DNA from: Chromatiales bacterium USCg_Taylor
GTDB lineage: Bacteria; Pseudomonadota; Gammaproteobacteria; JACCXJ01
Direction of reading: 5' to 3'
Assembly: GCA_002007425.1 (NCBI GenBank)
Contig: MUGK01000042.1
Coordinates: forward strand, 1 to 44,300
DNA: 44,300 bases
Each line of letters begins with the position of its first letter. Within the stretch, counting starts at the first letter, position 1. Positions 2,975 through 35,600 of this stretch are shown here, piece after piece. The notes under the pieces were generated by a model. That model saw only the letters and a list, made by a program, of their open reading frames with translations. It was not told the origin of the DNA and ran no database searches. Both the position numbers and the translations under genes were made by a program.

Positions 2975-2978
2975 CTCC

Positions 2979-4049: not shown

Positions 4050-4065
4050 GCCGGTGATCTCGTGC

Positions 4066-5055: not shown

Positions 5056-5091
5056 GCTATTACGATAGCCGCCGGCCGGATTGTACGTAAA

Positions 5092-6192: not shown

Positions 6193-6203
6193 TTTTGGCC
6201 TTC

Positions 6204-7964: not shown

Positions 7965-7990
7965 TAGATGGTGATTGATTGCGGCGCGAA

Positions 7991-9805: not shown

Positions 9806-9817
9806 TCTCGCGCGAGG

Positions 9818-11695
9818 CTATGGCGTGCTTACAAGCGAGGCACCGATGTCACGATGCTGTTCTAGCCACGTCGCATTGTCCCGTGAAAAATCGTTGTAGT
9901 GGGCTATCACCACCTCGGGCTCGTCGTCCATAACCAGCCGCCCTTTTTCGAGCCAGATGACGCGCGAGCAAAAATTCCCCAGCTGTTTGACATTGTGTGA
10001 CACCATGACCACCGCTCCCGCATTCGCTCGCATGGATTGCATGCGCTCGTCAGCCTTGCTGCTGAATGACTGATCGCCGGTAGACATGGCTTCATCCAGA
10101 ATCAGGATCTCCGGCTTGACGGCGGTCGCCACGGCGAACGCGAGTCGGCTGCGCATTCCGGATGAATATGTCCTCATGGGCTCGTCGATAAATTCCCCGA
10201 TCTCCGAGAAAGCGATGATGTCCGTCATATTTCTCATGACCTCCTTCCTGGTTAGTCCTAGGAGCGTGCCGCTGAGCAGCACATTCTCACGGCCTGTCAG
10301 TTCGGGTCGAAACCCTACTCCCAATGCTAAAAGTTGCACCCGGCCGTTACGGATCACCTCGCCATGGTCCGGGTGTAATGTGCCGGCCATTAGCATACAT
10401 AGTGTGCTTTTTCCTGAGCCATTGCGCCCGACGATTCCAACCATCTCTCCTTCAGCGACGGAAAAACTCACGTTTTTCAGCGCCCAGTAATATTTCCCCT
10501 TGTTGGACCGCCGTATTCCGCCGAACCAGGAAACAGCGCTTCTGTCATAGAAAACGCTGACCTCACGAACGGTAACGGCTACACGAGGCTCCTGCTTTGC
10601 GCGAGCGGTTGCATCGATGCGCGCCGCGGATTCGGTAAATACGTTTTGAGAAACCGGATCCCGCTGCTGCGGAATGACTTGGTCGGTGAAGACGCGGTTG
10701 CCAAATTCGTAGGTAATGAGCTCGTCGTCCACGGGAAGCTCGACACCCCTCGGCGGACTGGCTAGGTGGAAGACCTGGGGCTCGGCAAAGCGGACAATTT
10801 CCGGTACCGGCATCGCCCACGTCAGCGCGCCCGTTACAACGTCGAACGCGACCAGGCCGGATCGTTGTCCACGCTGATGAAAATCGCCTATTCCACAATA
10901 GATCGAATCTTCGCACATCGCCATGCCGCGCATGTCCCGGCCAAGCTGTGCATATCCCGGATCGCTCATGTGCGGCGTGGCAGTCCACTCGCTGGCTCGC
11001 GAGATCAGCCCGGTTTCATGAACCGCATCGTAGCAACTCAATTGCGTACCATTATTGTCGATCAGGAAGAAGCGCTCTCCGCTGAACAGGCCGCCGATGG
11101 GATCGTGGAGGCCATCGAAAAGCACTTCGCCGTGGTCTGTATCGACCACGACCCCCCTCTGTGAGCCGTTGCAGCCGGCTACGATCAGCAGCAATCTCTC
11201 ATCAGGCGCAACGCACATTCCTCGTATACTGCCATATTGGAATTCGGCTCCCAGCCACCCGGGAGACTCGCACAGATCCGCGGCTATTGCCCACAAGTGC
11301 CGGCGCCCGATGAACACTCCCTCGAGATCGAATTCCTCAATGCAGCATTGGCTGTTGTTTCCGACCCACACGCGCCTGCGCGCGTTTGAGGCTGCGACCG
11401 GGATCAGGTTCGCTTGCTTAGGGCCTCCGAGAACCCAATCCTTGCGAATGACCTCGCGCTCGAGGCGGAACAGCGGCGCATTCACGTCCTGTTCTACTGT
11501 ATATATGCGCAGACTTGCTTGCGTGACCGCGTATATGCGCCTGTCGACGACTGCAATCCCCCGTATTCCGGCAGATCGGAGCAAGTCGCTGGCTTGTTCC
11601 ACTTGCACGTACCGTAAGCCTCTGCCCGGCTCGACGATTCCCAGCGCCCCTCTCTGCCCGTCCGCACCTACCAATGAGACCAAAATGCCCGCCAT
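9818..11695 (-). CDS. wzt: Wzt/TagH-type polysaccharide ABC exporter ATPase with ~350-aa N-terminal beta-propeller-like extension
   Basis: C-terminal half: YWALKNVSF, Walker A GRNGSGKST, GFRPELTGRENV, signature YSSGMRSRLAFA, Walker B ILILDEA, VSH. The N-terminal half has beta-rich repeats (RGIAV, RGMCV, RGMAM). Confidence 0.88.
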   Translation of the reverse strand: MAGILVSLVGADGQRGALGIVEPGRGLRYVQVEQASDLLRSAGIRGIAVVDRRIYAVTQASLRIYTVEQDVNAPLFRLEREVIRKDWVLGGPKQANLIPVAASNARRRVWVGNNSQCCIEEFDLEGVFIGRRHLWAIAADLCESPGWLGAEFQYGSIRGMCVAPDERLLLIVAGCNGSQRGVVVDTDHGEVLFDGLHDPIGGLFSGERFFLIDNNGTQLSCYDAVHETGLISRASEWTATPHMSDPGYAQLGRDMRGMAMCEDSIYCGIGDFHQRGQRSGLVAFDVVTGALTWAMPVPEIVRFAEPQVFHLASPPRGVELPVDDELITYEFGNRVFTDQVIPQQRDPVSQNVFTESAARIDATARAKQEPRVAVTVREVSVFYDRSAVSWFGGIRRSNKGKYYWALKNVSFSVAEGEMVGIVGRNGSGKSTLCMLMAGTLHPDHGEVIRNGRVQLLALGVGFRPELTGRENVLLSGTLLGLTRKEVMRNMTDIIAFSEIGEFIDEPMRTYSSGMRSRLAFAVATAVKPEILILDEAMSTGDQSFSSKADERMQSMRANAGAVVMVSHNVKQLGNFCSRVIWLEKGRLVMDDEPEVVIAHYNDFSRDNATWLEQHRDIGASLVSTP

Positions 11696-11704
11696 GGCCC
11701 CTCC

Positions 11705-12490
11705 CTAAAGTAACTTCACGATCTTACGCGACTGCCAGCGGCTCCAGATAAGCCCGATCTGCACAAGCAACAACGCCGCGACGAGCAAGCCGGCGAACGG
11801 TTGCCATCCGTACATGCTGCCGGCCAGAATGAGATCGCGCAGACTGGAAATGATCCAGGCCAGCGGATTGGCTTGAAAGAGGAGCTTGGCAGCATCCGGG
11901 ATGCTGCCTGACTCTAGCACCCTGGAAGTCGGATACAGAATCGGCGTCAGCAGAAACCCGGCGCGCAGCACGTATCCCATGATCTCGTTGGTGTCCTTGA
12001 AGTGTACCTCGCAGACGGACAGAAACAGCGCCAAACCGTAACTGTAGACCCCGATGAGGACCAGAAGCGGGAGGCTCGCCAGTAAATGAAATCCCGGAGC
12101 CTGCCTGCTCCAAGCCATGATGATTAGGAGGCCGACCGCTGCGAATACGAATTGCACCACTATAGGAATGGCGACGATGGTCTGGATCGGCATCCCGATC
12201 TGGCGAATCAGCGCGCGGTTGGCGCTGATCGCCCGCGTGCACTGACCGAGAGCCCGGGAGAAAAAGAGCCAAGGGATAACGCCATAGAGGAGGAACAGGT
12301 GGTAATTTTCCCCGCCCCCCTCAAAGATAATCCTGACGATGAAATAGTAGACGGCCATTAGGAACAACGGATCGAGCAACCACCATAGATATCCTAACGC
12401 CGTCCGGGAGACGGTTGTCTTCAGATGCAACTGAACCAGCGTTAGGAACGCGTCTCGATTTGCGAGCAATTCCGAGCAAATCCTTATCAC
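11705..12490 (-). CDS. wzm: Wzm/TagG-type ABC-2 polysaccharide export permease
   Basis: TALGYLWWLLDPL, LLYGVIPWLFF, FLLTPILYP, ANPL; about 6 TM segments. Start assigned to GTG 12490 behind a GGAGG RBS. Confidence 0.9.
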   Translation of the reverse strand: MIRICSELLANRDAFLTLVQLHLKTTVSRTALGYLWWLLDPLFLMAVYYFIVRIIFEGGGENYHLFLLYGVIPWLFFSRALGQCTRAISANRALIRQIGMPIQTIVAIPIVVQFVFAAVGLLIIMAWSRQAPGFHLLASLPLLVLIGVYSYGLALFLSVCEVHFKDTNEIMGYVLRAGFLLTPILYPTSRVLESGSIPDAAKLLFQANPLAWIISSLRDLILAGSMYGWQPFAGLLVAALLLVQIGLIWSRWQSRKIVKLL

Positions 12491-12539
12491 TAAACACCCT
12501 CCGGCGGCGCCGGCTCGCACGAAGAATTGCGGTACATAT

Positions 12540-13715
12540 TTAGGCGTGGTCCGGGCCGTTGATGAAGTACGTAAACATCCCGGCCTGCTGCTCCCAGTTA
12601 AACCGATCGAGGTAAGCACGGCGTCCAGCCTGGGCATGCTGTCGCCGTAAGTCCTGGTTTTCGAGATAAGAGCAGATCGCGCCGGCTGCTTGCGCAGAAT
12701 CCTCGGCGTCAATGCTGATCCCGAAACCGTGGTCGCGGACGAAAGCGCCGATCGAGCCGACGTCGGAAACGACGATCGGCAGGCCGGCCTGCATGTAGGT
12801 GAAGATCTTTCTGCAGTTGCCTTCGCCCGCGAGGTGATTTCTTTCCTTCTGCAGAATAGCAAGGCCAATGAGCGAGGCCCGCAAATAGGCCTGCAATCTC
12901 CGGTAGGGCATCTGGGCCCGGAAGATCGTGACGTCAACGATCCCCAGATCGTGTCGCAATCGATCGATGTACTCCTGCTTTTCCTGAAGAGGTCCAATAA
13001 ACAGGAAGCGGATGTCCGGAAACCGATCTCTAACCGCCGGTATCGCACGCAGCGCAACGTCCAGCCCCTTGATCCGCGTAAGCCGGCCCGCATAGGCAAC
13101 GATCCTTGCGCTACCGAGCTCGCTCGCTGCCGCGGCGATCTCTGCCGCGTCGGGCTCATCATCCCGAGACGGCGTATTCCATAGCGCCAAGACGGGCCGG
13201 CGCATGCGCCGGTAATATTCTTCAAGCCAACCGTCGCGCGAGTCGATGGTCGTGATGGCAGCGACGCGCGCCAACCAGAGCCGTTCGAGGCGCCGGACCA
13301 ACGGGCGCGCCAGCCACCCGAGCCGCCCGAAATAACGCAGCATGTCTTCGCAGAAATACTCAGGGGCATCGTAGTAGAGTTTCCCGCAAAGCCCCGCCAG
13401 GACCGGTGCGGCGGGTAGAAGACAAAAGTGCGTCATGAAGATCGCGTCGACCCTGCCAATGCGGCGGATGGCCATGATGATTTGGCGTAGAAGCGACGGC
13501 AGCTTCCACAACAGGGTCGCGCTGCCGGCACCCGCCCGCAGGGGGATGTTGTGCCATTCGGACACCCATTCGTCCGGGATCGCCCGATCGCGCGGCCAAT
13601 TCCTGTTCCAGGATATAACGATGATCTCATGGCCGTCGCGGGAAAGCGTTTTACACATCAGCCGATGGCGCGGGATAATATCGGCATAGCAGCAGATGAA
13701 GATGAAGCGCTTCAT
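12540..13715 (-). CDS. Glycosyltransferase family 4
   Basis: YYDAPE, WNTP, YAGRLTRIKGL, KIFTYMQAGLPIVVSD, FNWE. Confidence 0.88.
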   Translation of the reverse strand: MKRFIFICCYADIIPRHRLMCKTLSRDGHEIIVISWNRNWPRDRAIPDEWVSEWHNIPLRAGAGSATLLWKLPSLLRQIIMAIRRIGRVDAIFMTHFCLLPAAPVLAGLCGKLYYDAPEYFCEDMLRYFGRLGWLARPLVRRLERLWLARVAAITTIDSRDGWLEEYYRRMRRPVLALWNTPSRDDEPDAAEIAAAASELGSARIVAYAGRLTRIKGLDVALRAIPAVRDRFPDIRFLFIGPLQEKQEYIDRLRHDLGIVDVTIFRAQMPYRRLQAYLRASLIGLAILQKERNHLAGEGNCRKIFTYMQAGLPIVVSDVGSIGAFVRDHGFGISIDAEDSAQAAGAICSYLENQDLRRQHAQAGRRAYLDRFNWEQQAGMFTYFINGPDHA

Positions 13716-24266: not shown

Positions 24267-25688
24267 CTAGCCGTTCACCGTTTCTTCGGCGCGGTGCATC
24301 CCAAATTTTTTCATCTTCTCGACCAAGGTCGTACGCCCCATATTCAATCGCCTAGCCGCATTAGCAACCACCCAGTGGGCCTCGTCGAGGGCCTGTTTGA
24401 TCATCGTGTACTCGATATTATTCAGATGTTCCTTGAGATCGATCCCCCCGCGCGGCAACCGCGGCAAGGACGAAACCTCTTCGGCGTGCGGCACGCTCAC
24501 GAGAATCGGCGCTCGCTCCGCTAACTCTACCGCCTGATATTTCTCCGGGAGATCATGTAAGTCCACTACCCCGCCGGGGTAGAGGATCGCCAGCCGTTCC
24601 ATCAGGTTCGCTAGCTCCCGGATGTTACCGGCCCAACGATAGCCGGTCAGTGATTCGAGGCACAGGTCGGTTAATCGTAGCCTTCCCCGGCCCTCGTGCT
24701 CCAAACGCGCAAGGAGGTCATTCACGAGCAAAGGCAGATCCTCGATACGTTCCCGCAGTGGTGGCATCTCAATCGGGAAAACATTCAAGCGGTAATAAAG
24801 ATCTTCCCGGAACGTGCCCTTGACGATGGCTTCTTCCAGATTGACATGGGTCGCGGCGACGATGCGTACGTCCGCGGTGATGCTCTTGTTACTGCCGACG
24901 CGCTCGAAGGTGCGGTCCTGCAGCACGCGCAACAGCTTCACTTGCATCGCCAGGCTCATGTCGCCGATCTCATCCAAAAACAGCGTTCCGCCCTCGGCCA
25001 TCTCGAAGCGCCCTTGCCGCGCGGTGATCGCCCCGGTAAACGCTCCTTTTTCGTGCCCGAACAACTCGCTCTCCAAGAGATCGGCGGGAATGGCGCCGCA
25101 ATTCACCGGGACGAAAGGCTTACTCCGCCGTTTTGAATTGTAGTGGAGGTGCCTTGCCACGACTTCCTTGCCCGTGCCCGATTCGCCGGTGATCAACACA
25201 TTCGCATCGGTGGCGGCCACCATCCCGATCATTTTGCGTATGCGCTTAATACCGGCACTGGTGCCGACCAGGCTACGAAAAAGCTCCACGGACCTGGGCG
25301 TGCCGTCCTCATGGCGGTTTTGCCGATAAAGATCGACCTTCTGCAACACGCCCGTGAATTGCTTATAACGGAGCGGCAGTTCGATCTCGCCGAGGATCCC
25401 GGCCTCGATCTCCTGGTTGCTTTTCGGAGATCCGCCCGCTTCCGAGACGAGCAAGACCGGGCGATAAGGATCGGAGGTCTTAAGCGCACGGAACACTTCG
25501 ATCAATGTTCGCGCCGAGCTACAACTCCCCAACAAAACCAGCTCAACGGTCGCCGCCTCCCGAAGCCGGGGCTCCCACTCACCGTGGCCGCAGGCGATGA
25601 TGTGCCGATGCTCCAGGAATTCCATCACGGTTGCGAGCTTTAGCCGCAGGTCGAGGTTATCCTCAATGATTAGAACGCTGCAGTTCAT
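24267..25688 (-). CDS. fleQ: Sigma-54-dependent activator FleQ/FlrA
   Basis: Degenerate receiver-like N-terminal domain; LFRSLVG, GESGTGKE, NCGAIPADLLESELFGHEKGAFTGA, FREDLYYRLNVFP; C-terminal GIDLKEHL...VVANAARRLNMGRTTLVEKMKK typical of FleQ. Confidence 0.85.
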   Translation of the reverse strand: MNCSVLIIEDNLDLRLKLATVMEFLEHRHIIACGHGEWEPRLREAATVELVLLGSCSSARTLIEVFRALKTSDPYRPVLLVSEAGGSPKSNQEIEAGILGEIELPLRYKQFTGVLQKVDLYRQNRHEDGTPRSVELFRSLVGTSAGIKRIRKMIGMVAATDANVLITGESGTGKEVVARHLHYNSKRRSKPFVPVNCGAIPADLLESELFGHEKGAFTGAITARQGRFEMAEGGTLFLDEIGDMSLAMQVKLLRVLQDRTFERVGSNKSITADVRIVAATHVNLEEAIVKGTFREDLYYRLNVFPIEMPPLRERIEDLPLLVNDLLARLEHEGRGRLRLTDLCLESLTGYRWAGNIRELANLMERLAILYPGGVVDLHDLPEKYQAVELAERAPILVSVPHAEEVSSLPRLPRGGIDLKEHLNNIEYTMIKQALDEAHWVVANAARRLNMGRTTLVEKMKKFGMHRAEETVNG

Positions 25689-27100: not shown

Positions 27101-27988
27101 ATGAAGCTGGTGGCAAGAAAAATCCAGAGGATACCGCGCCCGGGCCTCACTTCTGGTCCCGAGCCGGCGTTGCCCCGCGATGCCGGGGCCGCACCGGCGT
27201 TCACCTTGCAGGTGATGACCTACAATATCCACAAAGGGTTTAGCACCGGCAACGCGCGTTTCGTCTTGCATCAGATGCGCGATGCATTGGAGCGAGCCGA
27301 TGTCGACTTGATCTTTTTGCAAGAGATCCAAGGCGCCCACGCGTACCGGCAATGGTTGATCGACGATTGGCCGAACGCGCCGCAATCGGACTTCTTGGCC
27401 GACCGGAGATGGCCGCACCGCGCCTACGGGAAAAACGCGATCTATGATGCCGGGCATCATGGAAACGCCATCCTCAGCAAGTATCCCATCCGCTTCTGGG
27501 AAAACATCAACGTATCGGGAAGTCCCATCGCCAGCCGCAGCGTGCTGCATGCCGAGATCGCGCTCCCGCAAGTCGATCAGCCGCTGCACGTGATCTGCAT
27601 ACATTTCGGGCTCATCGCCGCGGAACGCCGGCACCAGCTTTCGGTGCTCGCGAGACGCATCCGGTCCCACGTCCCTGGTCATGCGCCGTTGATTATCGCC
27701 GGGGACTTCAATGATTGGGCCCGGCAGGCGGAATACCAAATGCGGACTCACCTTGGGCTCATGGATGTGTTCGTGACCCTAAACAACCGGCCGGCGAAAA
27801 CCTTTCCCGTCTGGTACCCGGTATTGGCCGTGGACCGCATCTTTTATCGCGGCGCGACCCCGATCACTTGCCGCTGCTTGAAAGACATGCCCTGGCGGCG
27901 CCTGTCCGACCACGCGGCCCTGTACGCGGCGTTTTCCCTGGCGCTGGAACCGGCGGCTAGGGATCGCCTCATCGAGCAACCGCTCTAG
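27101..27988 (+). CDS. Endonuclease/exonuclease/phosphatase family protein (YbhP-like)
   Basis: TYNIHKG, LQEIQG, YGKNA, HHGNAILSKYP, IAGDFNDW, VDRIFYRG, SDH. The true start may be further downstream. Confidence 0.88.
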   Translation: MKLVARKIQRIPRPGLTSGPEPALPRDAGAAPAFTLQVMTYNIHKGFSTGNARFVLHQMRDALERADVDLIFLQEIQGAHAYRQWLIDDWPNAPQSDFLADRRWPHRAYGKNAIYDAGHHGNAILSKYPIRFWENINVSGSPIASRSVLHAEIALPQVDQPLHVICIHFGLIAAERRHQLSVLARRIRSHVPGHAPLIIAGDFNDWARQAEYQMRTHLGLMDVFVTLNNRPAKTFPVWYPVLAVDRIFYRGATPITCRCLKDMPWRRLSDHAALYAAFSLALEPAARDRLIEQPL

Positions 27989-28013
27989 AGCCGGCCGGAT
28001 CGAGGGACGTCTT

Positions 28014-28208
28014 ATGAAATCTCGCGGTGATGCACTGGCCCGGCGGCTCGTGGGCGTGATGCTCGGAGCCACGACACTCATCGCAATCGTCGCGATCATC
28101 GTGCTACCGGGTCCGGCATTCATCGTCATCCCCGCCGGAATCGCGATCCTTGTTCTCGAATACATCTGGACCCGTTGGTGGTTACGCACGCGCGGGAAGG
28201 AAGACTGA
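28014..28208 (+). CDS. Small membrane protein, PGPGW-like family
   Basis: Two hydrophobic segments around LPGPAFIVIPAGIAILVLEY.W; GAGG RBS. Confidence 0.6.
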   Translation: MKSRGDALARRLVGVMLGATTLIAIVAIIVLPGPAFIVIPAGIAILVLEYIWTRWWLRTRGKED

Positions 28209-28271
28209 TCGAGAGGCTGCGGCGCATATTGACATTACGCTGCCGCGACTGTGATATTTGGGGCTACCGAA

Positions 28272-28874
28272 ATGGCACTTCAGGAGAACATCAACGGCGT
28301 GCTCACTTGGCCGAATTTGCTGAGCTGCTTTCGGTTCATCGCGGCGCCCGTGCTCGGCCTGCTCGCTTGGCATGGATTGCCGAGGACCTATTTGGCGGTC
28401 CTCGTACTATCGTTCCTGAGCGATGTACTCGACGGTTTCATCGCGCGGGTATTGAAGCAGGAATCCGCACTCGGGACCCGATTGGACACCGCCGGCGACG
28501 TGGTGATGTACGCCACGATCCCGGTGACGGCGTGGTGGTTATGGCCTGACATCATGCGCCAAGAGGCGCCGTTCATCATGACGGTCATCGCGAGCTCCGC
28601 CCTGTCTGCCATCATCGGTATGTTGAAATTCAGAGTCTTTCCCACCTATCACACCTGGGGCGTTAAGTTGGCGGCCGCGGTGGCTGCTAGCACCGCCTTC
28701 CTCATGTTCGCCGGCGGTCCGACATGGCCGTTTCGGCTGGCCACGCTGATCTGTTTGCTCGCGGCGATCGAGCAAATCGCCATCACGATCGTGCTGCACG
28801 AGAGCCGCTCTAACGTGCGGTCGCTCTGGCATGTGTTAACGGACAAATCCAAAAGTAGTCAGCGCGCGCTATAA
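28272..28874 (+). CDS. CDP-alcohol phosphatidyltransferase family protein
   Basis: PNLLSCFR and signature DVLDGFIAR-x6-LGTRLDTAGD; multiple TM helices. Confidence 0.9.
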   Translation: MALQENINGVLTWPNLLSCFRFIAAPVLGLLAWHGLPRTYLAVLVLSFLSDVLDGFIARVLKQESALGTRLDTAGDVVMYATIPVTAWWLWPDIMRQEAPFIMTVIASSALSAIIGMLKFRVFPTYHTWGVKLAAAVAASTAFLMFAGGPTWPFRLATLICLLAAIEQIAITIVLHESRSNVRSLWHVLTDKSKSSQRAL

Positions 28875-28967
28875 TTTATTGTGAAGGCAACCGATCGAAG
28901 GCGTGGACAAGAGAACCGTGAGCTTAGAGCTTGCCTGAGAGGGTAAGCCGCCTAAGGGGGATCACCA

Positions 28968-30299
28968 ATGCAGTACCTAAAAATTAAAAATCGCACGGCT
29001 TTTCTACTAGTTACAATGGTGCTTCCGTGGTTAGGGGCTTGCAATGCACGGTTGCAAGAGAATGCCGAAGGACCGCGTGGAGCCCATGGCGCCCTCGATA
29101 TGGATCAGCAAAAAACCCTCCTCGAGAGCTTACTTCCAGAGCGCGACGTAACCCAGTCCCCGCCTGGCGTCGATCCAGGGATCTGGCAACAGCTTGTGAT
29201 CCCGGAGGACAACAAGATGACCCCCGAACGGGTGGCGCTCGGGAAGAAGCTCTACTTCGAAACCCGGCTGTCCAAGGACGGCACCGTGGCCTGCGCCACC
29301 TGCCATGACGTCAGCCGAGGCTTTACCGACCAGCGCCCCGTGTCGGAGGGTATCAATGGCGCCCTGGGCAAGCGCAATGCCCCCACCACCATGAATGCCT
29401 TTTTGCTGCAAACCATGTTTCTTGACGGCCGCGCCCCGAGCCTCGAGGAACAGGCGAAACTGCCCATCGTCAACCCGATCGAGATGGGCCACGCCAACGA
29501 GGGGGCGGCGCTGGCGGCGATCGCTGATGATCCCGAATACCAGCGCATGTTCTCCTTCGCCTATGGGCGGGCTCCGAACTACGACGATTTGGGGCGGGCC
29601 ATCGCTGCCTTTGAGCGTACCTTCGTGTTTCTCGATGCGCCCTTCGATCGCTACCTCGCGGGCAGTCCGGAGGCCATCTCGGAGGAGGCCAAGCGCGGCT
29701 GGAATTTATTCAATGGTAAGGGGCGCTGCATGAGCTGTCACCAGATGAACCCTTCCATTCCCATCGGCAGCGACAATCGATTTCACAATATCGGGGTGGC
29801 GGCGCGCAAGCAAAATTTCGAACAATTGGCGCGCCGGGCGCTCGAGGCCCTGGCGCAGGAAGGGGATATGAAAGCGGTGGATCGTCTGGCGATCGAGACC
29901 GATCTGTCGGAGCTTGGCCGGTTCATGGTCACGAAGGATCGTGCCGACATCGGGGCGTTCAAGACCATGCAATTGCGCAATATCGCACTGACGGGCCCCT
30001 ACATGCATGACGGGTCCATGGAGACGCTGTGGGACGTGATGGATCACTATAACAAAGGCGGCGAGCCCAATCCGTTTCTGGACGGCGGCATCGAACCGCT
30101 GGCCTTGAGCGAAGACGAAATCGATGCCGTCGTGGAGTTCATGTTTACTCTGAGCGACGCGCGCTTGGCGGAGCAAAATCAGCGCGCCTTTACACAACAG
30201 CGCAAGCTGGCCGCGGCGAAGCGCCCCTTCCGCGACACGGCGATGGCCGAGCGTCGCGTACTGCCGTTTGAAGAGCGGGTCATGGGCGGGACCAGATAA
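28968..30299 (+). CDS. Di-haem bCcP/MauG-superfamily lipoprotein (MauG/BthA-like)
   Basis: Lipobox LGAC(25); LGKKLYFETRLS; two CxxCH (CATCH aa109, CMSCH aa254); RNAPT, FLDGRA.SLEEQA..PI.NPIEMG, FHNIG, AFKT..LRNIALTGPYMHDGS, DHYNKGG. Confidence 0.9.
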   Translation: MQYLKIKNRTAFLLVTMVLPWLGACNARLQENAEGPRGAHGALDMDQQKTLLESLLPERDVTQSPPGVDPGIWQQLVIPEDNKMTPERVALGKKLYFETRLSKDGTVACATCHDVSRGFTDQRPVSEGINGALGKRNAPTTMNAFLLQTMFLDGRAPSLEEQAKLPIVNPIEMGHANEGAALAAIADDPEYQRMFSFAYGRAPNYDDLGRAIAAFERTFVFLDAPFDRYLAGSPEAISEEAKRGWNLFNGKGRCMSCHQMNPSIPIGSDNRFHNIGVAARKQNFEQLARRALEALAQEGDMKAVDRLAIETDLSELGRFMVTKDRADIGAFKTMQLRNIALTGPYMHDGSMETLWDVMDHYNKGGEPNPFLDGGIEPLALSEDEIDAVVEFMFTLSDARLAEQNQRAFTQQRKLAAAKRPFRDTAMAERRVLPFEERVMGGTR

Positions 30300-30315
30300 G
30301 TTTGGAGGCACAAAG

Positions 30316-31449
30316 ATGAAACGAACAATCGTTAAGAGCGTTGAGACGAGATACTACGAAGAACGCGAGGCATTGTTCCGTGGCTTGAAAAACCTCGACC
30401 GCCGGAGCTTTCTCAAGCTCTCCGCCGCCGCTGCTGCGGCCGCGCTCGCGCGCGGCGTGGAATTCAACTTGCACAGTTTCCAGCCGGTGCAGGTGGCCCA
30501 CGCCGCGACCGGAGAGGCGGGCCCGGTGGAATTCACCTTCGCCTATATTTCCGACTCGCACCTCTATAAACGCCAGCTCAATGACCGCTTCGTTCGGCAG
30601 TTGCTGCGCGCCGTCGACGACATCAACCACCTGGCCCCGCAGCCGGATTTCGTGCTCTATGGGGGTGATCTCGCGCAACTGGGGCAGCCCTTGGAGCTCG
30701 AGCTCGGCGCGCAGATCCTGAAAAACCTCAAGGCGCCGGTCAAGATGATGGTGGGCGAGCACGACTGGTTTCTGGACATGGGCGAGAAATGGCGCACGCT
30801 GTTTGGGGAACCTACCTATTCGTTTGATCACAAGGGCGTCCACTTTGTCGTGCTCCACAGTGTGATGGAGGATGACTTCTGGAGCGAGCGGGGCATGACG
30901 GGGATGGAGCGGATGCAGACGGTGGCGGGGCTCGACAATGGCATCCAGAGCCGCTTCAAGGTCGGGACGGAGCAGCAGGTCTGGCTCAAGAACAACCTCG
31001 CTGCCTATTCCGATGACACGCCGCTCATCGTGTTCTCGCACTCCCCGCTGTATAAATATTATCGCCCGTGGAACTTCTGGACCGACGACGCCGAGGAGGT
31101 ACAGGCACTATTGCAGCGCTTCAAGCAGGTAGTAGTCGTGCACGGGCACACCCACCAGATACTCACCCATCGGATCGGTAACATCCATTTCCATGGGATG
31201 CTGTCAACCGCCTGGCCGTGGCCCTATGCGCCCGAGGGCTTGCCGGCCCTCACGGTGCAGATGAACCGCGCCGATCCCTTCAATCCCAACGACGCGCTCG
31301 GGGATGGATCGGTCGGCGTCAAAGCGGGCGGCCTCGTCGATAAACTTTACAATCTTTGGAACCGCAACCCAATCCAGGTCACTAGCGCTTATCTCACAAG
31401 CGGGGGAAAAAGCGCCGTGCCGCTTACGCCTAATCTTCAAAGTTATTGA
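30316..31449 (+). CDS. Tat-exported calcineurin-like metallophosphoesterase
   Basis: Twin-arginine DRRSFLK plus AHA cleavage site; metal motifs ISDSH, GGDL, GEHD, FSHSP, HGHTH; GGAGG RBS. Confidence 0.88.
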   Translation: MKRTIVKSVETRYYEEREALFRGLKNLDRRSFLKLSAAAAAAALARGVEFNLHSFQPVQVAHAATGEAGPVEFTFAYISDSHLYKRQLNDRFVRQLLRAVDDINHLAPQPDFVLYGGDLAQLGQPLELELGAQILKNLKAPVKMMVGEHDWFLDMGEKWRTLFGEPTYSFDHKGVHFVVLHSVMEDDFWSERGMTGMERMQTVAGLDNGIQSRFKVGTEQQVWLKNNLAAYSDDTPLIVFSHSPLYKYYRPWNFWTDDAEEVQALLQRFKQVVVVHGHTHQILTHRIGNIHFHGMLSTAWPWPYAPEGLPALTVQMNRADPFNPNDALGDGSVGVKAGGLVDKLYNLWNRNPIQVTSAYLTSGGKSAVPLTPNLQSY

Positions 31450-31474
31450 GAAGTCACCCAAAGAGGATAAGAAA

Positions 31475-32074
31475 ATGCGCACGTTCAAACTTCTCCTAGG
31501 CGCCACCCTCACGCTCGTGTCGCTGATGTGGTCCCCAGGGCGGGCGGAGCAGTCAGGCGGCGATTACCCGGCCGCCGCCAAGCAAGACCCGGGGACCGAT
31601 GACGCGGCCATGGCGCAATGGAAACGCCGCGGCCAAGAACCCGACTGGATGGCCGAAGAGCTGGCCAAGCACAAGGTGCTGATTCCGGCCGACAACAAGG
31701 GTCTTGTTGGCAAGGGCCAGGGATCGACCTACGGTAGCGTTACCCCCGAGGATGTGAAGGTCTGGCAACAAGAGACGTACAAGTTGGCCGTGGAAGGCTC
31801 GCGCATCTTTCACAGCGGCGATCGACTGAAGAGCACTATTGCCGTCTCCTGCGATATGTGCCATCCGGATGGAGCGAATACCCACCCCGAGACTTACCCG
31901 AAGTTTCAGGCCCAACTCGGGCGGGTCGCACTGTTGCGCGACGCGATCAACTGGTGCATCGAAAATCCGGTGCGGGGCAAAAAGCTTGCTCCGGATTCCC
32001 CTGAGATGCGGGCGCTGGAGACCTATATCTATGCCCAGCGCACGGGCACGCCTCTGCAGTACGGAAAGCGCTAG
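31475..32074 (+). CDS. Periplasmic mono-haem c-type cytochrome, SoxA/TsdA-like domain
   Basis: Sec signal peptide; single CxxCH (CDMCH aa126-130); YPKF...LRDAINWCIENPVRG....DSPEMRALETYI. Confidence 0.8.
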   Translation: MRTFKLLLGATLTLVSLMWSPGRAEQSGGDYPAAAKQDPGTDDAAMAQWKRRGQEPDWMAEELAKHKVLIPADNKGLVGKGQGSTYGSVTPEDVKVWQQETYKLAVEGSRIFHSGDRLKSTIAVSCDMCHPDGANTHPETYPKFQAQLGRVALLRDAINWCIENPVRGKKLAPDSPEMRALETYIYAQRTGTPLQYGKR

Positions 32075-32172
32075 GAACTGCCACGCCATTCTTCACCTTG
32101 CTCCCCCGATGGTCCATGGAAGAAGCCGCTTTGACCGCGATTGCAATGCCGGCCCTGCGCGTGTGATCCGAG

Positions 32173-32776
32173 ATGAATGAACCGCTCTTCGCTTCCATGC
32201 AGCAGCACATGATCTCCGACATTGAGGCGCACACCGGCATGTGTGTCGATTTCATCGGAAAATCCACGCTCGACCCGCGTGTGATGCAGGTCATGGCCGA
32301 GATCCCGCGGCATGAATTTGTGCCGGTGGAATTCCAAGACTACGCCTACGCCGACACGCCCTTGCCCATCGGTTATAACAAAACCATTTCCCAGCCGTTT
32401 ATCGTTGCATTGATGACCGATCTCCTGGCCTTGAACGCTACCGACAAGGTGCTCGAGATCGGCACCGGCCTAGGGTACCAAGCGGCCGTCCTCGCGAAGC
32501 TTTCAGCCAAGGTCTACACCGTGGACATTATCGAAGAGTTATCGGAGCAAGCTCAGCGCCGATTCGGACAGTTGGGCTACCGCAACATCGAAACACGCAT
32601 CAGTGATGGCTATTTCGGCTGGCCCGAAATCGCGCCGTTCGACAAAATCATCGTCACCCGATGCGCAAAAACTCATCGTCGTGGTAAGAGATTCCGCGGG
32701 TAGCTTGTCCACCAAGGAAATGCTGCCGGTGCGCTTCTCCGAGCTCGAAAGCGACGCATCCGCGACTCATTGTTGA
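32173..32776 (+). pseudogene. pcm: Protein-L-isoaspartate O-methyltransferase, internally deleted and frameshifted
   Basis: IPRHEFV, AYADTPLPIGYNKTISQP, VLEIGTGLGYQAA, GWPEIAPFDKIIVT. The frame breaks at ~32658, and the family-type tail PDAQKLIVVVRDSAGSLSTKEMLPVRFSELE continues in another frame to TGA 32776. Confidence 0.85.
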
Positions 32777-33975
32777 CCCGCGCGAAACGTTCGCTTGCCC
32801 GGCCGCGGTACCCTCGCAGCCCGGCGTTGACCTAAGCTTTTTCCGATTAAGATGAGGCGCATCACCCGCTCACCCGCGTTCTCCAAGTGCTGCCTCGAGA
32901 GGCGCAAGGCCTCCGCGAGATCCATGTCGCGCGCGGCCACCGCTTCGAGGGCATCAATACCGTGGGAATAGACCCCCCGAGCATCGTCCGCGAGCCCCCC
33001 GCCGATGGCCACAACAGGCACCCTGAATTTCTTGGCCGCCTTCGCGACTCCAGCCGGCGTCTTACCGAACGCGGTCTGAAAATCGACCCGCCCCTCGCCG
33101 GTAATGACCAGATCCGCGTCTCGCAAGTAGCGCTTTAGTTGCGTCGCTTCGATCACCAGATCCACGCCGCGTTTCATCCGCGCCCGGGCGAAAGCAACGA
33201 GCCCCGCCCCTAATCCTCCGGCGGCCCCGCCGCCCTTGAGCTTGGCGACGTCGATGCCGCAATCCCGCTTAATCACCACCGCCGCGCGCCGGAGATTGCT
33301 ATCGAGCAGCTTCACCATCTCCGGGGTCGCGCCTTTTTGCGGACCGAAGACATAGGCCGCGCCGCGCCGGCCATACAAGGGATTATCCACGTCGCTGGCG
33401 ATAATGATTCGGGCTTTTCTCACCCTCGGATCGAGACCGCTCATATCGATCTTGGCGATCTGACCGAGCATACCGCCGCTGCATAGCGTGGTGATCTCCT
33501 TACCGTTGGCGCCTATGAATTTCACCCCGAGCGCTTGCGCCATGCCCGTTCCGCAATCGACCGTCGCCGAACCGCCGATGCCGATAATTATGGACTTGAT
33601 CCCCCTTGACATGGCATCAACAATGAGCTCCCCGGTACCGTAGGTGGTCGTCTCGAGCGGGTTTCGCTCTGCTCTCGGGATTAACGGCAGCCCGGACGCC
33701 TCGGCCATTTCGATGACCGCGGTCTCGCCGTCACCGACAATGCCGTAACGAGCGCTCACAGGTTCGCCACGGGGACCGCGCACCCGCTTTCGCAGCAGGC
33801 TGCCCGCCGTGGCATCGACCAGTGACTGCACCGTGCCCTCGCCACCGTCGGCCATCGGGATCTTGACGCATCGCGCCTTGGGCAGGACACGGCGGATCCC
33901 GCGCTCGATGGCGGTCGCAACCTCTAGGGAGGTAAGATTCTCTTTGAAGGAGTCGGGGGCAATCACGATTTTCAT
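32767..33975 (-). CDS. glxK: Glycerate kinase (GlxK/GarK family)
   Basis: MKIVIAPDSFK, PMADGGEGT, IEMAEASGL, TTYGTGELI, GIGGSATVD, VFGPQKGA, GAAGGLG, TGEGRVDFQTAFGK. Confidence 0.93.
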   Translation of the reverse strand: MKIVIAPDSFKENLTSLEVATAIERGIRRVLPKARCVKIPMADGGEGTVQSLVDATAGSLLRKRVRGPRGEPVSARYGIVGDGETAVIEMAEASGLPLIPRAERNPLETTTYGTGELIVDAMSRGIKSIIIGIGGSATVDCGTGMAQALGVKFIGANGKEITTLCSGGMLGQIAKIDMSGLDPRVRKARIIIASDVDNPLYGRRGAAYVFGPQKGATPEMVKLLDSNLRRAAVVIKRDCGIDVAKLKGGGAAGGLGAGLVAFARARMKRGVDLVIEATQLKRYLRDADLVITGEGRVDFQTAFGKTPAGVAKAAKKFRVPVVAIGGGLADDARGVYSHGIDALEAVAARDMDLAEALRLSRQHLENAGERVMRLILIGKSLGQRRAARVPRPGKRTFRAGQQ

Positions 33976-35297: not shown

Positions 35298-35600
35298 ATG
35301 AGTCAGCGCGATTTTGAGCCCATACATCCGGGTGAAATCCTCTTGGAAGAATTCCTCAAACCGATGGGCATCACGCAATATCGATTAGCGAAAGACATCA
35401 GTGTCCCTCAACGGCGTATCAGCGAAATCGTTCAGGGCAAGCGTTCCATCACCGCCGATACGGCCGTGCGGCTCGGTCACTTCTTTGGGATGGAAGCCCA
35501 GTTCTGGTTGAACCTCCAAGCGCGGTACGACCTACTCCAGGTGCAACACGCGCTAGCTTCCCGCCTAGAACAAGAAGTCCACCCTTATGTGGCAGCTTGA
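35298..35600 (+). CDS. higA: HigA-family antitoxin (HTH-XRE)
   Basis: PIHPGEILLEEFLKPMGITQYRLAKDI, RISEIVQGKRSITADTA, FWLNLQARYDL; downstream of the toxin. Confidence 0.93.
   Translation: MSQRDFEPIHPGEILLEEFLKPMGITQYRLAKDISVPQRRISEIVQGKRSITADTAVRLGHFFGMEAQFWLNLQARYDLLQVQHALASRLEQEVHPYVAA

What the first reader, a model, noticed from the sequence alone, without database searches (positions are those of the whole stretch)
28968..32074. Candidate uncharacterised periplasmic redox/hydrolysis system: MauG-like di-haem enzyme + Tat metallophosphoesterase + SoxA/TsdA-like cytochrome
Seen: three co-oriented genes with 16- and 25-nt gaps and good RBSs. All are exported (lipoprotein, Tat, Sec), and no mau, mbn, sox or tsd partner genes lie nearby. 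Known: MauG-class enzymes (MauG, MbnH) oxidatively modify a neighbouring partner protein. SoxB is a metallophosphoesterase-fold hydrolase that works with the His/Cys-haem protein SoxA. Inference: this is either a miniature Sox-like module, where a Cys-ligated haem binds or oxidises a sulfur (or phosphorus) oxyanion and the metallohydrolase releases the product, or a maturation system where the di-haem enzyme installs a cofactor on one of the other two proteins. I do not recognise this trio as a characterised pathway.
Basis: partly seen in the sequence, partly recalled or inferred. Interest (0 to 1): 0.85.

Follow-up and report, generated by a model that had tools for sequence, protein, structure and literature searches.

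The report
Conserved haem–metallohydrolase periplasmic gene trio
Three neighbouring genes for exported proteins (a MauG-like two-haem enzyme, a two-metal hydrolase and a cysteine-ligated cytochrome) travel together across many bacterial phyla and probably form an uncharacterised redox enzyme system, possibly acting on sulfur compounds.

Summary
Window 28968-32074 carries three co-oriented genes with 16- and 25-nt gaps: a CCP/MauG-family di-haem protein, a Tat-signal calcineurin-like metallophosphoesterase (MPE) and a one-haem SoxA/TsdA-type cytochrome (CYT).

The trio is not a chance neighbourhood. It keeps the same order and strand in 79 of 80 public loci from several phyla, and no other neighbour is conserved.

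- The di-haem protein is MauG/MbnH-like, with an invariant Tyr at the MauG Tyr294 position.
- CYT keeps the SoxA/TsdA haem-ligand Cys but lacks that family's invariant Arg.
- MPE keeps its metal ligands but has Glu for the canonical Asn.

A complex model places the CYT haem motif and Cys on conserved MPE loops (ipSAE 0.87, best control 0.01).

Rhizobial megaplasmids carry the MPE-CYT pair without the di-haem gene. There it lies beside a cbb3-type oxidase, SCO and soxYZ-fccAB.

Best reading: MPE-CYT is a new two-subunit periplasmic oxidoreductase/hydrolase, probably for a sulfur oxyanion, and the di-haem enzyme is its dedicated redox partner. The chemistry is inferred, not shown. I found no paper that describes the trio.

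The parts
28875..28967 (+). Upstream intergenic region / 5' leader of the trio. No regulatory element was recognised.
   Evidence: Sequence read. The promoter and terminator scan of 28000-32800 gave no more sites than shuffles and none in this stretch. Rfam found nothing relevant at E<=1 in 28000-32600.
28968..30299 (+). Di-haem CCP/MauG-family protein (443 aa), MauG/MbnH-like. It has two CxxCH motifs, Tyr361 at the MauG Tyr294 position and an LGAC lipobox in this clade only.
   Evidence: Pfam CCP_MauG 181.8 bits. The best NCBIfam hits, MbnH 217.2 and MauG 210.9 bits, are both below their cut-offs. Tyr361 aligns with MauG Tyr294 and with the MbnH Tyr and is Tyr in 80 of 80 homologues with a residue there. 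Gln162, Pro166 and Glu172 are conserved.
30316..31449 (+). Tat-exported calcineurin-like metallophosphoesterase (377 aa). Motifs are DSH, GGD, GEHD (Glu148 in place of the canonical Asn), SHSP and GHTH, plus invariant aromatic loops (WNFWT, AWPWPYAP).
   Evidence: Pfam Metallophos 63.6 bits and TAT_signal 23.9 bits. D80, H82, D118, E148, H149, D150, H242, H278 and H280 are identical in 81 of 81 sequences. E148 is kept in >=90% of an alignment that includes relatives at 29-48% identity. The closest solved relatives are GpdQ and Rv0805.
31475..32074 (+). Sec-exported one-haem SoxA/TsdA-type cytochrome c (199 aa). It has CDMCH at 126-130 and invariant Cys161 as the likely sixth haem ligand.
   Evidence: Pfam SoxA-TsdA_cyt-c 43.2 bits. 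Cys161 aligns with the ligand Cys of SoxA (1h31) and TsdA (4v2k) and is invariant in 76 sequences. The top Foldseek matches of the model (pLDDT 69) are TsdA and SoxA, at a weak E of 0.04.

Best explanation
The three genes form one operon-like module that spreads as a unit. Its constant core is a two-subunit periplasmic enzyme. The Tat-exported binuclear metallophosphoesterase (MPE) binds the small cytochrome (CYT). CYT's c-type haem, with a His/Cys ligand pair, then sits on the conserved loops that follow the MPE metal-ligand motifs.

I propose that this pair carries out on one complex a coupled oxidation and hydrolysis of a small anionic substrate, most likely a sulfur oxyanion such as thiosulfate or sulfite. 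The steps would be:
1. The substrate is oxidatively attached at the Cys-ligated haem, as in SoxA and TsdA.
2. The two-metal site hydrolyses the adduct to sulfate, as SoxB does.
3. The two electrons leave through the haem.

The first gene product, a MauG-like Tyr/His di-haem enzyme, is the dedicated redox partner. It takes these low-potential electrons and spends them on H2O2 (or O2). In rhizobia a cupredoxin-like protein and a cbb3-type oxidase take that place.

- **Shown:** gene structure, domains, conserved residues and conserved linkage.
- **Predicted by a model:** the MPE-CYT complex.
- **Inferred:** substrate, direction of electron flow and role of the di-haem enzyme.
For: 1. **Linkage.** The trio has the same order and strand in 79 of 80 loci whose record titles name Gammaproteobacteria, Alphaproteobacteria, Myxococcota, Planctomycetota, Binatia, Acidobacteriota, Thermodesulfobacteriota and Spirochaetales. 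It is also found in a divergent form, with MPE about 50% identical (53%, 49.5%), in genome G032, and on a Methylocystis plasmid beside a Tn3 transposase. No other neighbour family occurs in more than 14 of 80 loci.
2. **Constraint.** Median identity to the window is 69% for MPE, 60% for CYT and 61% for the di-haem protein across these phyla.
3. **Complex model.** MPE 64-377 with CYT 40-199, haem and 2 Fe gave ipSAE 0.87 (runs 0.81, 0.87, 0.87) against a best control of 0.01. That mark was reached by 58 of 80 solved complexes and 2 of 110 mismatched pairs. The runs agree in at least 88% of contacts and partner pLDDT is at least 85. The counts hold only roughly, because I supplied my own alignments and ligands rode along.
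4. **Interface.** It joins CYT 127-135 (the CxxCH region) and W160-C161 to MPE Y84, N89, R91, Q121, G205-N208, W252, W300-P303, A305 and P306. Invariant residues are enriched there: MPE 18 of 27 against 108 of 287 elsewhere, and CYT 12 of 24 against 27 of 136.
5. **Haem ligand.** CYT Cys161 aligns with the haem-ligand Cys of SoxA and TsdA. TsdA catalysis runs through an S-thiosulfonate on that Cys (passages of PMC4423706).
6. **Core pair with other partners.** On megaplasmids of Sinorhizobium (3 species), Rhizobium and Phyllobacterium, a 46%-identical MPE plus CYT lies after a CarboxypepD_reg protein and has no di-haem gene within 5-10 kb. SCO is present in 6 of 6 loci. A cbb3-type oxidase and soxYZ-fccAB are each present within 5-10 kb in 5 of 6 loci, in two gene arrangements. 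No SoxB was found on one pSymA, and its only SoxA/TsdA domain is this CYT.
7. **Di-haem enzyme.** It keeps the peroxide-pocket Gln/Pro/Glu positions and the Tyr ligand. A Tyr/His relative, BthA, turns over H2O2 with an external donor and is always beside a putative purple acid phosphatase, which is also MPE-fold (passages of PMC6405878).
8. **Expression.** Contigs from RNA libraries of three studies cover parts of the trio. One contig of 1970 nt spans 29529-31495. This is weak evidence, because DNA carry-over is not excluded.
Against: - No activity, metal content or haem ligation was measured, and the complex is a model only.
[quoted passage not shown] It has Ala in the window and Met in most homologues. 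It also lacks the TsdA Arg109 and Ser127 equivalents. It scores 33.9 bits against a SoxA cut-off of 110.
- The window's genome shows no SoxY (93% complete). None of the 83 sources searched (the window, the 80 canonical loci and two other loci fetched from relatives) has SoxY, SoxZ, FccB, SCO or an oxidase gene; for the canonical loci this covers the 6 kb on each side. The sulfur link therefore rests on one related clade (Rhizobiaceae and Phyllobacterium, which are kin and not independent).
- The hosts are mostly heterotrophs not known as sulfur oxidisers.
- The MauG-type Tyr ligand is classically tied to oxidising a partner protein rather than to peroxide removal.
- The cupredoxin reading of the rhizobial first gene rests on non-significant matches to amicyanin (E 0.11) with aligned ligand positions.
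- MPE keeps a full hydrolase motif set, so a plain phosphoesterase activity is not excluded.
Confidence: 0.42

Rival explanations
1. Maturation system. The MauG-like di-haem enzyme uses H2O2 to install a protein-derived cofactor or cross-link, for example on one of the invariant Trp, Tyr or Cys residues of MPE or CYT. Precedents are MauG acting on pre-methylamine dehydrogenase and MbnH acting on MbnP. Only the modified MPE-CYT enzyme would then be active.
For: - Tyr361 aligns with MauG Tyr294 and is Tyr in 80 of 80 homologues.
- The best NCBIfam hits are MbnH and MauG.
- MPE has many invariant aromatic residues (W151, W159, W252, W255, W300, W302) and CYT has an invariant W160-C161.
- BthA, another Tyr/His di-haem enzyme, always lies beside a putative purple acid phosphatase, and its authors suggest it oxidises that partner (PMC6405878 passages).
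- The genome has two further CCP_MauG loci that could cover ordinary peroxide removal.
Against: - The rhizobial MPE-CYT pair keeps the same invariant motifs (GEHDW, WNFW, WPWPYAPEG, NWC) but has no CCP/MauG gene within 5-10 kb. The rest of those genomes was not searched.
- The Trp midway between the haems is Leu in the window and in 28 of 80 homologues.
- Scores are well below the MauG and MbnH cut-offs.
- No modified residue can be seen from sequence.
Confidence: 0.2
2. Periplasmic phosphoesterase with redox control. MPE is a true phosphate-scavenging or signalling phosphoesterase of the GpdQ, Rv0805 or purple-acid-phosphatase type. The attached cytochrome and the di-haem enzyme set or protect the oxidation state of its Fe-containing metal pair.
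For: - All phosphoesterase motifs, including the catalytic His149, are invariant.
- The closest solved relatives are the phosphodiesterases GpdQ and Rv0805 and purple acid phosphatases.
- Source annotations call the homologues Icc or CpdA.
- Tat export fits a metal centre that is loaded before export.
- The BthA-phosA pairing shows a second link between a di-haem enzyme and an MPE-fold phosphatase.
Against: - Scores are far below the curated CpdA and SpdA cut-offs (32.8 against 225, and 31.2 against 400).
- The metal-ligand Asn of motif III is replaced by Glu in every member.
- The model puts CYT on the conserved loops next to the metal-ligand motifs, which may limit access for bulky phosphoesters (access is my inference, as no coordinates were available).
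- No pho or pst gene is among the conserved neighbours.
- The rhizobial context is respiratory and sulfur-related, not phosphate-related.
Confidence: 0.15
3. The same MPE-CYT core oxidises a different small substrate that mimics phosphate or binds thiolate-haem. Candidates are phosphite, arsenite, selenite or a nitrogen oxide or hydroxylamine species. The electrons again go to the di-haem enzyme.
For: - Binuclear MPE sites bind tetrahedral oxyanions in general (established knowledge).
- CYT lacks the thiosulfate-binding Arg and Ser of TsdA.
- The canonical trio never sits beside sulfur genes.
- The hosts span aerobes and anaerobes, including a Brocadiaceae genome.
Against: - No ars, aio, ptx or nitrogen-cycle gene is among the conserved neighbours.
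- The only informative context found points to sulfur carriers.
Confidence: 0.13
4. The three genes are functionally independent neighbours: a peroxide-detoxifying peroxidase, a phosphatase and an electron-carrier cytochrome.
For: Each family has stand-alone members. No experiment links these three.
Against: - Order and strand are fixed in 79 of 80 loci across phyla, while all other neighbours vary.
- The gaps are 16 and 25 nt.
- The complex model scores 0.87 against 0.01 for controls.
- The MPE-CYT pair persists when the third gene is exchanged.
Confidence: 0.04

Closest known systems
[quoted passage not shown]
   Same: CYT has the SoxA/TsdA cytochrome domain and a Cys aligned with their haem-ligand Cys. 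MPE shares the binuclear metallophosphoesterase fold class with SoxB; SoxB structures appear only as weak Foldseek matches at ranks 28 and 39. A related MPE-CYT pair lies beside soxYZ in rhizobia.
   Different: CYT has one haem and no SoxX or second-haem domain. The invariant active-site Arg of SoxA and TsdA is missing. The SoxA score is 33.9 bits against a cut-off of 110, and SoxB is not among the MPE's NCBIfam hits. MPE has 377 aa, is closest to GpdQ and Rv0805, and lacks a 5'-nucleotidase C-domain. The model has the two proteins bound to each other, which to my recollection is not known for SoxA and SoxB. The window's genome has no SoxY.
MauG (tryptophan tryptophylquinone biosynthesis) and MbnH (kynurenine formation in MbnP)
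   Same: The di-haem CCP_MauG fold and a Tyr at the six-coordinate-haem ligand position. The gene sits directly beside candidate partner proteins.
   Different: Scores are below both curated cut-offs: 210.9 against 443.85 for MauG and 217.2 against 362.85 for MbnH. The neighbours are an MPE and a cytochrome, not MADH subunits or MbnP. The inter-haem Trp is Leu here. The N-terminal half resembles ordinary peroxidases more closely (best PDB hit is Shewanella CcpA, 5e-49).
BthA-PhosA pair of Burkholderia (PMC6405878; passages read)
   Same: A Tyr/His di-haem enzyme of unknown role is always encoded next to a putative exported MPE-fold phosphatase (a purple acid phosphatase). Its authors also suspect oxidation chemistry on that partner.
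   Different: BthA is only a distant relative (6nx0, E 7e-15). The gene order is the reverse, with bthA downstream of the phosphatase. No Cys-ligated cytochrome is reported there. I could not see that paper's Supplementary Fig. 1, which shows the gene context, because supplements are closed.
GpdQ / Rv0805 / CpdA class of binuclear phosphodiesterases
   Same: These are the best sequence and fold matches of the MPE. The five-motif metal site is the same.
   Different: Identity is about 16-20% over the fold match. Motif III is GEHD rather than GNHD. MPE has a Tat signal with a conserved N-region and a roughly 90-residue conserved C-terminal extension (AWPWPYAPEGLP...). It has a predicted cytochrome subunit. 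NCBIfam scores are far below cut-off.

Membership tests
Calcineurin-like metallophosphoesterase superfamily (PF00149) | Profile match above the curated cut-off | tested here: met
   63.6 bits against a cut-off of 21.5.
Calcineurin-like metallophosphoesterase superfamily (PF00149) | Five motifs that supply seven metal ligands: D-x-H, G-D, G-N-H-[DE], H and G-H-x-H (motif consensus recalled from the literature) | tested here: inconclusive
   Six of the seven ligand positions are canonical and identical in 81 of 81 sequences. The motif III Asn is Glu148 in 81 of 81 and in >=90% of a wider alignment.
CpdA / SpdA cyclic-nucleotide phosphodiesterases (NF008359, NF050112) | Equivalog score above cut-off | tested here: not met
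   32.8 against 225, and 31.2 against 400.
SoxB sulfate thiohydrolase (TIGR04486) | Equivalog match | tested here: not met
   SoxB is not among the NCBIfam hits of the MPE at E<=0.1. SoxB structures are only weak fold matches (E 0.07-0.09).
SoxA / TsdA family of Cys-ligated cytochromes | SoxA/TsdA cytochrome c domain (PF21342) | tested here: met
   43.2 bits against a cut-off of 27.
SoxA / TsdA family of Cys-ligated cytochromes | Cysteine as sixth haem ligand | tested here: met
   This is met by alignment only. Cys161 aligns with the ligand Cys of 1h31 SoxA and 4v2k TsdA and is invariant in 76 sequences. Actual ligation cannot be tested with these tools.
SoxA / TsdA family of Cys-ligated cytochromes | Active-site Arg four residues before the Cys (TsdA Arg119), 'invariant in TsdA and SoxA' according to PMC4423706 | tested here: not met
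   The position is Ala157 in the window and Met in >=90% of homologues. The paper's passage was read.
SoxA / TsdA family of Cys-ligated cytochromes | A second, electron-transfer haem (a TsdA domain or SoxX subunit), and a SoxA equivalog score | tested here: not met
   CYT has one CxxCH only. TIGR04484 scores 33.9 against a cut-off of 110. No SoxX-like gene is adjacent.
MauG (TIGR03791) | Equivalog score above cut-off | tested here: not met
   210.9 against 443.85.
MauG (TIGR03791) | Tyr axial ligand of the six-coordinate haem (Tyr294) | tested here: met
   Tyr361 aligns with MauG Tyr294 and is Tyr in 80 of 80 homologues.
MauG (TIGR03791) | Substrate pre-methylamine dehydrogenase / mau genes in the genome | tested here: inconclusive
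   None is present in the neighbourhood. PF02975 was not found genome-wide, but the control rang in no genome.
MauG (TIGR03791) | Trp midway between the haems (MauG Trp93; number recalled) | tested here: not met
   Position 152 is Leu in the window. Among 80 homologues it is Trp in 52 and Leu in 28.
MbnH (TIGR04039) | Score above cut-off and an adjacent MbnP partner | tested here: not met
   217.2 against 362.85. The adjacent genes are an MPE and a cytochrome. No MbnP profile was searched.
Canonical bacterial cytochrome c peroxidase | CCP_MauG fold with peroxide-pocket Gln/Pro/Glu | tested here: met
   Pfam 181.8 bits. Q162, P166 and E172 are conserved and align with Shewanella CcpA.
Canonical bacterial cytochrome c peroxidase | His/Met-ligated high-potential haem | tested here: not met
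   The ligand position carries the MauG-type Tyr. The paper's passage on Met-His against Tyr-His ligation was read.

The most novel reading that the evidence does not exclude
The MPE-CYT pair is a previously unrecognised class of two-subunit enzyme in which a thiolate-ligated c-haem and a binuclear metallohydrolase site form one composite active site. It merges SoxA-type oxidative sulfur conjugation and SoxB-type hydrolysis into a single molybdenum-free sulfite- or thiosulfate-to-sulfate oxidase. In most hosts it is wired to a Tyr/His di-haem enzyme, so that H2O2 (or O2) is the terminal oxidant. In rhizobia it is wired to its own cupredoxin and cbb3-type oxidase and works with SoxYZ.
Probability: 0.25. 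Interest if true: 0.9.

Novelty: new variant of a known kind. Interest (0 to 1): 0.77.

Why it matters
- **Scale.** The module is common and strongly constrained. More than 5,000 related proteins were found in metagenome catalogues. None of the ten full-text searches found a paper on it.
- **New cofactor pairing.** If the model is right, it adds a new pairing (thiolate-haem next to a two-metal hydrolase centre) to bioinorganic chemistry.
- **A partner for orphan di-haem enzymes.** It gives MauG-like enzymes a defined physiological partner. That question has been open since BthA was found beside a phosphatase.
- **Sulfur oxidation in heterotrophs.** It may reveal a molybdenum-free route of inorganic sulfur oxidation in soil and sediment heterotrophs, and in rhizobia that carry only soxYZEF.
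- **Testability.** Cultured hosts exist, including Myxococcus, Corallococcus, Chondromyces, Nitrosococcus halophilus, Methylocystis and Sinorhizobium.

Tried and rejected
- **AlphaFold2 of the MPE.** A 14-row alignment gave a poor model (mean pLDDT 55.6). I used it only for a coarse fold match, and no residue-level claim rests on it.
- **Fused forms.** I searched for MPE-CYT fusions as a Rosetta-stone test (17 longer proteins). Five proteins join MPE and CYT parts through long Arg/Pro-rich out-of-frame stretches (P0123, P0132, P0133, P0134, P0137). P0135 and the CYT-peroxiredoxin P0124 look like lost stop codons. Each is a single sequence on a single contig. I count none as a real fusion.
- **Other conserved neighbours.** ORF clustering over the 80 loci found nothing in more than 14 loci. 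A LysR regulator occurs in 12, an unknown 196-aa protein in 9, an LPG_synthase_C protein in 8 and a zf-HC2 anti-sigma factor in 6. Single-linkage clustering merged low-complexity ORFs into the two largest clusters, so the counts are rough.
- **Sulfur and oxidase genes near the canonical trio.** tblastn with rhizobial SoxY, SoxZ, FccA, FccB, SCO, COX1, FixOP and the CarboxypepD_reg protein hit 0 of 83 sources: the window, the 80 canonical loci and two other loci.
- **'TauE/SafE sulfite exporter'.** This gene lies after the rhizobial oxidase. I rejected it as evidence for sulfite. It always follows the oxidase, and its HCxxMCGG motif looks to me (from recollection) like an oxidase or cytochrome maturation membrane protein.
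- **Lipoprotein anchoring as a family trait.** Rejected: 5 of 68.
- **Regulatory elements.** The promoter and terminator scan gave no more sites than shuffles. Rfam gave only a chance hit to a viral element at E 0.4.
- **Methylamine dehydrogenase light chain.** The search was uninformative because its control rang nowhere.
- **Genome G021.** Its 41%-identical MPE lies beside a flavin amine oxidase and has no cytochrome. It is a different family and was not pursued. Methylocystis bryophila carries a lone 50%-identical MPE among IS elements.
- **RNA libraries.** All four runs were Logan contigs, so no transcript ends, strand or levels can be read. Parts without cover (for example X16-X18 over much of the CYT gene) mean nothing. 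The X15 contig reaches only 21 nt into CYT, so it does not count as bridging that junction.
- **Literature.** None returned a paper on an MPE with a cytochrome or a di-haem enzyme as a system. The Thioalkalivibrio paper mentions an unrelated MPE in ars clusters. Subscription-only papers are not in the library. Supplements are closed, so BthA Supplementary Fig. 1 was not seen.
- **ESM Atlas.** It listed only clusters named as metallophosphoesterase or protein phosphatase and held no structure.

Full report
**What is in the sequence.** Window 28968-32074 holds three + strand genes.

- The first (28968-30299, 443 aa) is a di-haem CCP_MauG protein (Pfam 181.8 bits).
- The second is best read from the ATG at 30316, preceded by GGAGG, to 31449 (377 aa). 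It is a calcineurin-like metallophosphoesterase (MPE; 63.6 bits) with a twin-arginine signal (Pfam 23.9 bits, TIGR01409 21.5 bits, both above cut-off).
- The third is best read from the ATG at 31475, preceded by AGAGGA, to 32074 (199 aa). This is the start its homologues use. It is a one-haem cytochrome with the SoxA/TsdA domain (CYT; 43.2 bits).

The flanking genes are unrelated. Upstream lie an endonuclease/exonuclease/phosphatase-family gene and a CDP-alcohol phosphatidyltransferase. Downstream lie a protein-isoaspartate methyltransferase and a glycerate kinase.

**The linkage is real.**
- The MPE has more than 5,000 relatives in the metagenome catalogue. The best 120 are 67-100% identical.
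- tblastn with the three window proteins found all three, in the same order and strand, in 79 of these 80 loci. The exception, L022, ends 269 nt after its MPE. Several di-haem or CYT genes are cut by contig ends.
- The record titles name Gammaproteobacteria, Alphaproteobacteria, Myxococcota (Myxococcus, Corallococcus, Cystobacter, Chondromyces, Minicystis), Planctomycetota (including a Brocadiaceae genome), Binatia, Acidobacteriota, Thermodesulfobacteriota and Spirochaetales.
- Clustering all ORFs of the 80 loci found no further family in more than 14 loci. The trio is therefore a self-contained cassette.
- A more divergent trio, with MPE about 50% identical (53%, 49.5%), exists in genome G032 of the same class.
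- A Methylocystis plasmid carries the trio beside a Tn3-family transposase.
- Within the window's own family the MPE was found in 13 of 14 other genomes. That count includes genomes marked unpublished.
- Median identity to the window across the 80 loci is 69% for MPE, 60% for CYT and 61% for the di-haem protein. That is unusually high for proteins shared between phyla.

**The di-haem protein.**
- Its N-terminal half resembles ordinary bacterial peroxidases (best PDB hit Shewanella CcpA, 5e-49).
- The peroxide-pocket positions Gln162, Pro166 and Glu172 are conserved.
- Its C-terminal half is closest to MbnH (6e1c) and MauG. Tyr361 aligns with MauG Tyr294, the ligand of the six-coordinate haem, and with the MbnH Tyr. 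It is Tyr in 80 of 80 homologues that have a residue there.
- The loop that carries two adjacent His residues in the aligned Shewanella enzyme has no His here. In reductively activated peroxidases a loop in this region supplies the distal His ligand (recalled; I did not confirm that these are the same residues).
- NCBIfam ranks MbnH (217.2 bits) and MauG (210.9 bits) first, but both are far below their cut-offs.
- The Trp between the haems is Leu in the window. Among 80 homologues it is Trp in 52 and Leu in 28.
- The protein is therefore a MauG-like enzyme of its own subfamily.
- The genome has two other CCP_MauG loci.

**The cytochrome.**
- CxxCH (126-130) and Cys161 are invariant in 76 sequences.
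- Cys161 aligns with the haem-ligand Cys of Rhodovulum SoxA and Allochromatium TsdA.
- The AlphaFold model (pLDDT 69) finds TsdA and SoxA first, at weak E-values of 0.04 or more.
[quoted passage not shown] In CYT these positions are Ala or Met, Gln and Pro.
- CYT therefore has the fold and the ligand of the SoxA family, but not its anion site. It also has no second haem or SoxX partner.

**The metallophosphoesterase.**
- All motif residues are identical in 81 of 81 sequences.
- The Asn of motif III is Glu148 throughout. This also holds in >=90% of an alignment that includes relatives at 29-48% identity, and in the rhizobial and G032 forms.
- The closest solved relatives are GpdQ, Rv0805 and purple acid phosphatases.
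- The curated CpdA and SpdA cut-offs are missed by far.
- The Tat signal has an unusually conserved N-region (S8, E10, T11 and R17 invariant).
- The C-terminal third is an invariant aromatic-rich extension (AWPWPYAPEGLP...).

**The predicted complex.** I gave the one complex job to MPE (64-377, 105-row alignment) and CYT (40-199, 76 rows), with haem and two Fe.
- The score was ipSAE 0.87 (runs 0.81, 0.87, 0.87) against a best control of 0.01. That mark was reached by 58 of 80 solved complexes and 2 of 110 mismatched pairs.
- The runs agree in at least 88% of contacts and the partner's pLDDT is at least 85.
- The calibration holds only roughly, because I used my own alignments and ligands rode along.
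- No close solved homologue of either chain is a complex of this kind, so recall of a known complex is unlikely.
- The interface joins the CYT haem motif (127-135), H113, Q145, Q147 and W160-C161 to MPE residues just after the metal-ligand motifs (Y84, N89, R91, Q121) and to the family-specific loops G205-N208, W252, W300-P303 and A305-P306.
- These residues are enriched in invariant positions: 18 of 27 against 108 of 287 for MPE, and 12 of 24 against 27 of 136 for CYT. Related sequences are not independent, and haem-binding residues are invariant in any case.
- The model therefore explains the family-specific conserved loops of the MPE as a docking surface that brings the thiolate haem close to the conserved loops that follow the metal-ligand motifs.
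- I had no coordinates, so I cannot give a haem-to-metal distance.

**A natural experiment in rhizobia.**
- In the plasmid collection, 55 records match the MPE.
- Forty Rhizobiaceae and Phyllobacterium megaplasmids hold a copy 46-47% identical. I examined six loci (S. meliloti twice, S. fredii, S. americanum, R. gallicum and Phyllobacterium).
- In all six the MPE is followed by a SoxA/TsdA-type CYT. It is preceded not by a di-haem gene but by a 238-aa protein with a CarboxypepD_reg domain.
- The middle of that protein aligns, non-significantly (E 0.11-0.8), with amicyanins and a CuA domain, with the His...Cys-x2-His-x2-Met ligand positions matched.
- SCO lies next to it in 6 of 6 loci. A cbb3-type oxidase (COX1 plus a FixO-FixP fusion) and soxY-soxZ-cytochrome-flavoprotein (soxYZEF-like, fccAB) each lie within 5-10 kb in 5 of 6 loci. 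They occur in two different arrangements.
- A comparative-genomics paper lists this 'soxYZEF-like' cluster as an accessory lithotrophy trait of some Sinorhizobium strains (PMC4053727, one table passage).
- On pSymA of strain R28 no SoxB was found, and the only SoxA/TsdA domain is this CYT. The chromosome and pSymB were not searched.
- None of these genes lies near the 80 canonical trios, and the window's genome has no SoxY (93% complete).

**What I conclude.** The constant element is the MPE-CYT pair. The variable third element is always a redox protein: a Tyr/His di-haem enzyme, or a cupredoxin-like protein with its own oxidase. This fits a substrate-oxidising core that hands electrons to a dedicated acceptor. 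The only informative context points to inorganic sulfur. A His/Cys haem of the SoxA type next to a SoxB-like two-metal hydrolase suggests Sox chemistry condensed onto one complex. The MPE metal site would replace the missing Arg anion site of the cytochrome. I put this reading at about 0.4.

**The main rivals.**
- A MauG-style maturation role (0.2). It is favoured by the Tyr ligand and by the BthA-phosA precedent (PMC6405878). It is weakened by the rhizobial pair that lacks a di-haem gene nearby.
- A redox-controlled phosphoesterase (0.15).
- Another oxyanion as substrate (0.13).
- Independent functions for the three genes (about 0.04), which I consider very unlikely.

**Expression.** Contigs from four metatranscriptome runs of three studies lie on the trio at 93-100% identity. 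One contig of 1970 nt covers 29529-31495. Contigs in three runs (two studies) bridge the junction between the di-haem gene and the MPE gene. These are contigs from RNA libraries, so they show neither strand nor a single transcript, nor that DNA was absent.

**Novelty.** The parts belong to known superfamilies, but every curated family test beyond the superfamily level fails. None of the ten full-text searches returned a description of the trio or of an MPE-cytochrome complex. The library lacks most subscription papers. I rate it a new variant of known kinds (Sox-type sulfur enzymes, and MauG-type di-haem enzymes with a partner). There is a real chance that the MPE-CYT core is a new enzyme class.

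Noticed in passing
L099 (S. meliloti R28 pSymA) 1-13124; also L097, L101, L102, L103, L098: Rhizobial megaplasmids carry a conserved cluster: cbb3-type oxidase (COX1 plus a FixO-FixP fusion), GroEL, an ALA-synthase-like gene, SCO, a CarboxypepD_reg/amicyanin-like protein, MPE, a SoxA-like cytochrome, and soxYZ with a flavocytochrome c. It looks like a self-contained respiratory branch for a sulfur substrate.
   Followed up: partly
L096 (Methylocystis sp. MJC1 plasmid) 1032-6876: The complete trio sits on a 354-kb plasmid directly after a Tn3-family transposase. This fits spread of the cassette by horizontal transfer.
   Followed up: partly
window 30316-30500 (MPE residues 1-62): The Tat signal has a long, highly conserved N-region before the RR motif (KSVET..YEER..., with S8, E10, T11 and R17 invariant in 14 sequences). 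It is reminiscent (from recollection) of signal peptides that bind a dedicated export chaperone. No chaperone gene is linked.
   Followed up: no
window 29085-29110 (di-haem protein residues about 40-47) and homologues in L018-L075: A short 'HGA(M/L)' motif directly after the signal peptide is shared by most non-Myxococcaceae homologues of the di-haem protein. Its role is unknown.
   Followed up: no
proteins P0123, P0132, P0133, P0134, P0137 (catalogue entries): Apparent MPE-cytochrome fusion proteins in the public protein catalogue are gene-calling artefacts. High-GC alternative frames join the two genes through Arg/Pro-rich nonsense stretches.
   Followed up: yes
G000 contigs C79:2984-3430 and C230:3125-3546: The genome holds two further CCP_MauG loci outside the window. 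The one on C230 is matched in two pieces in different frames, so it may be frameshifted.
   Followed up: no
window 24267-25688 (-): A FleQ-type sigma-54 activator (FleQ, Sigma54_activat and HTH_8 domains) lies 3.3 kb upstream of the trio, on the other strand. No link to the trio was seen.
   Followed up: no
window 27101-28874 (+): An endonuclease/exonuclease/phosphatase-family gene is followed by a CDP-alcohol phosphatidyltransferase directly upstream of the trio. The pair is not conserved next to the trio in other genomes.
   Followed up: partly
window 32173-32703 (+): The protein-isoaspartate methyltransferase ORF matches only positions 17-153 of the 210-position Pfam profile and ends in an Arg/Lys-rich tail. 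It may be truncated or frameshifted at its 3' end.
   Followed up: no
window 35298-35600 (+): A 100-aa HTH_3 (Xre/HigA-like) protein stands alone after a 300-nt gap. It may be the antitoxin of a small toxin-antitoxin pair.
   Followed up: no
L100 (Methylocystis bryophila plasmid) 6887-7963: A lone MPE, 50% identical, has no cytochrome or di-haem gene and lies among IS110 fragments and siderophore genes. It may be a remnant of the cassette.
   Followed up: no
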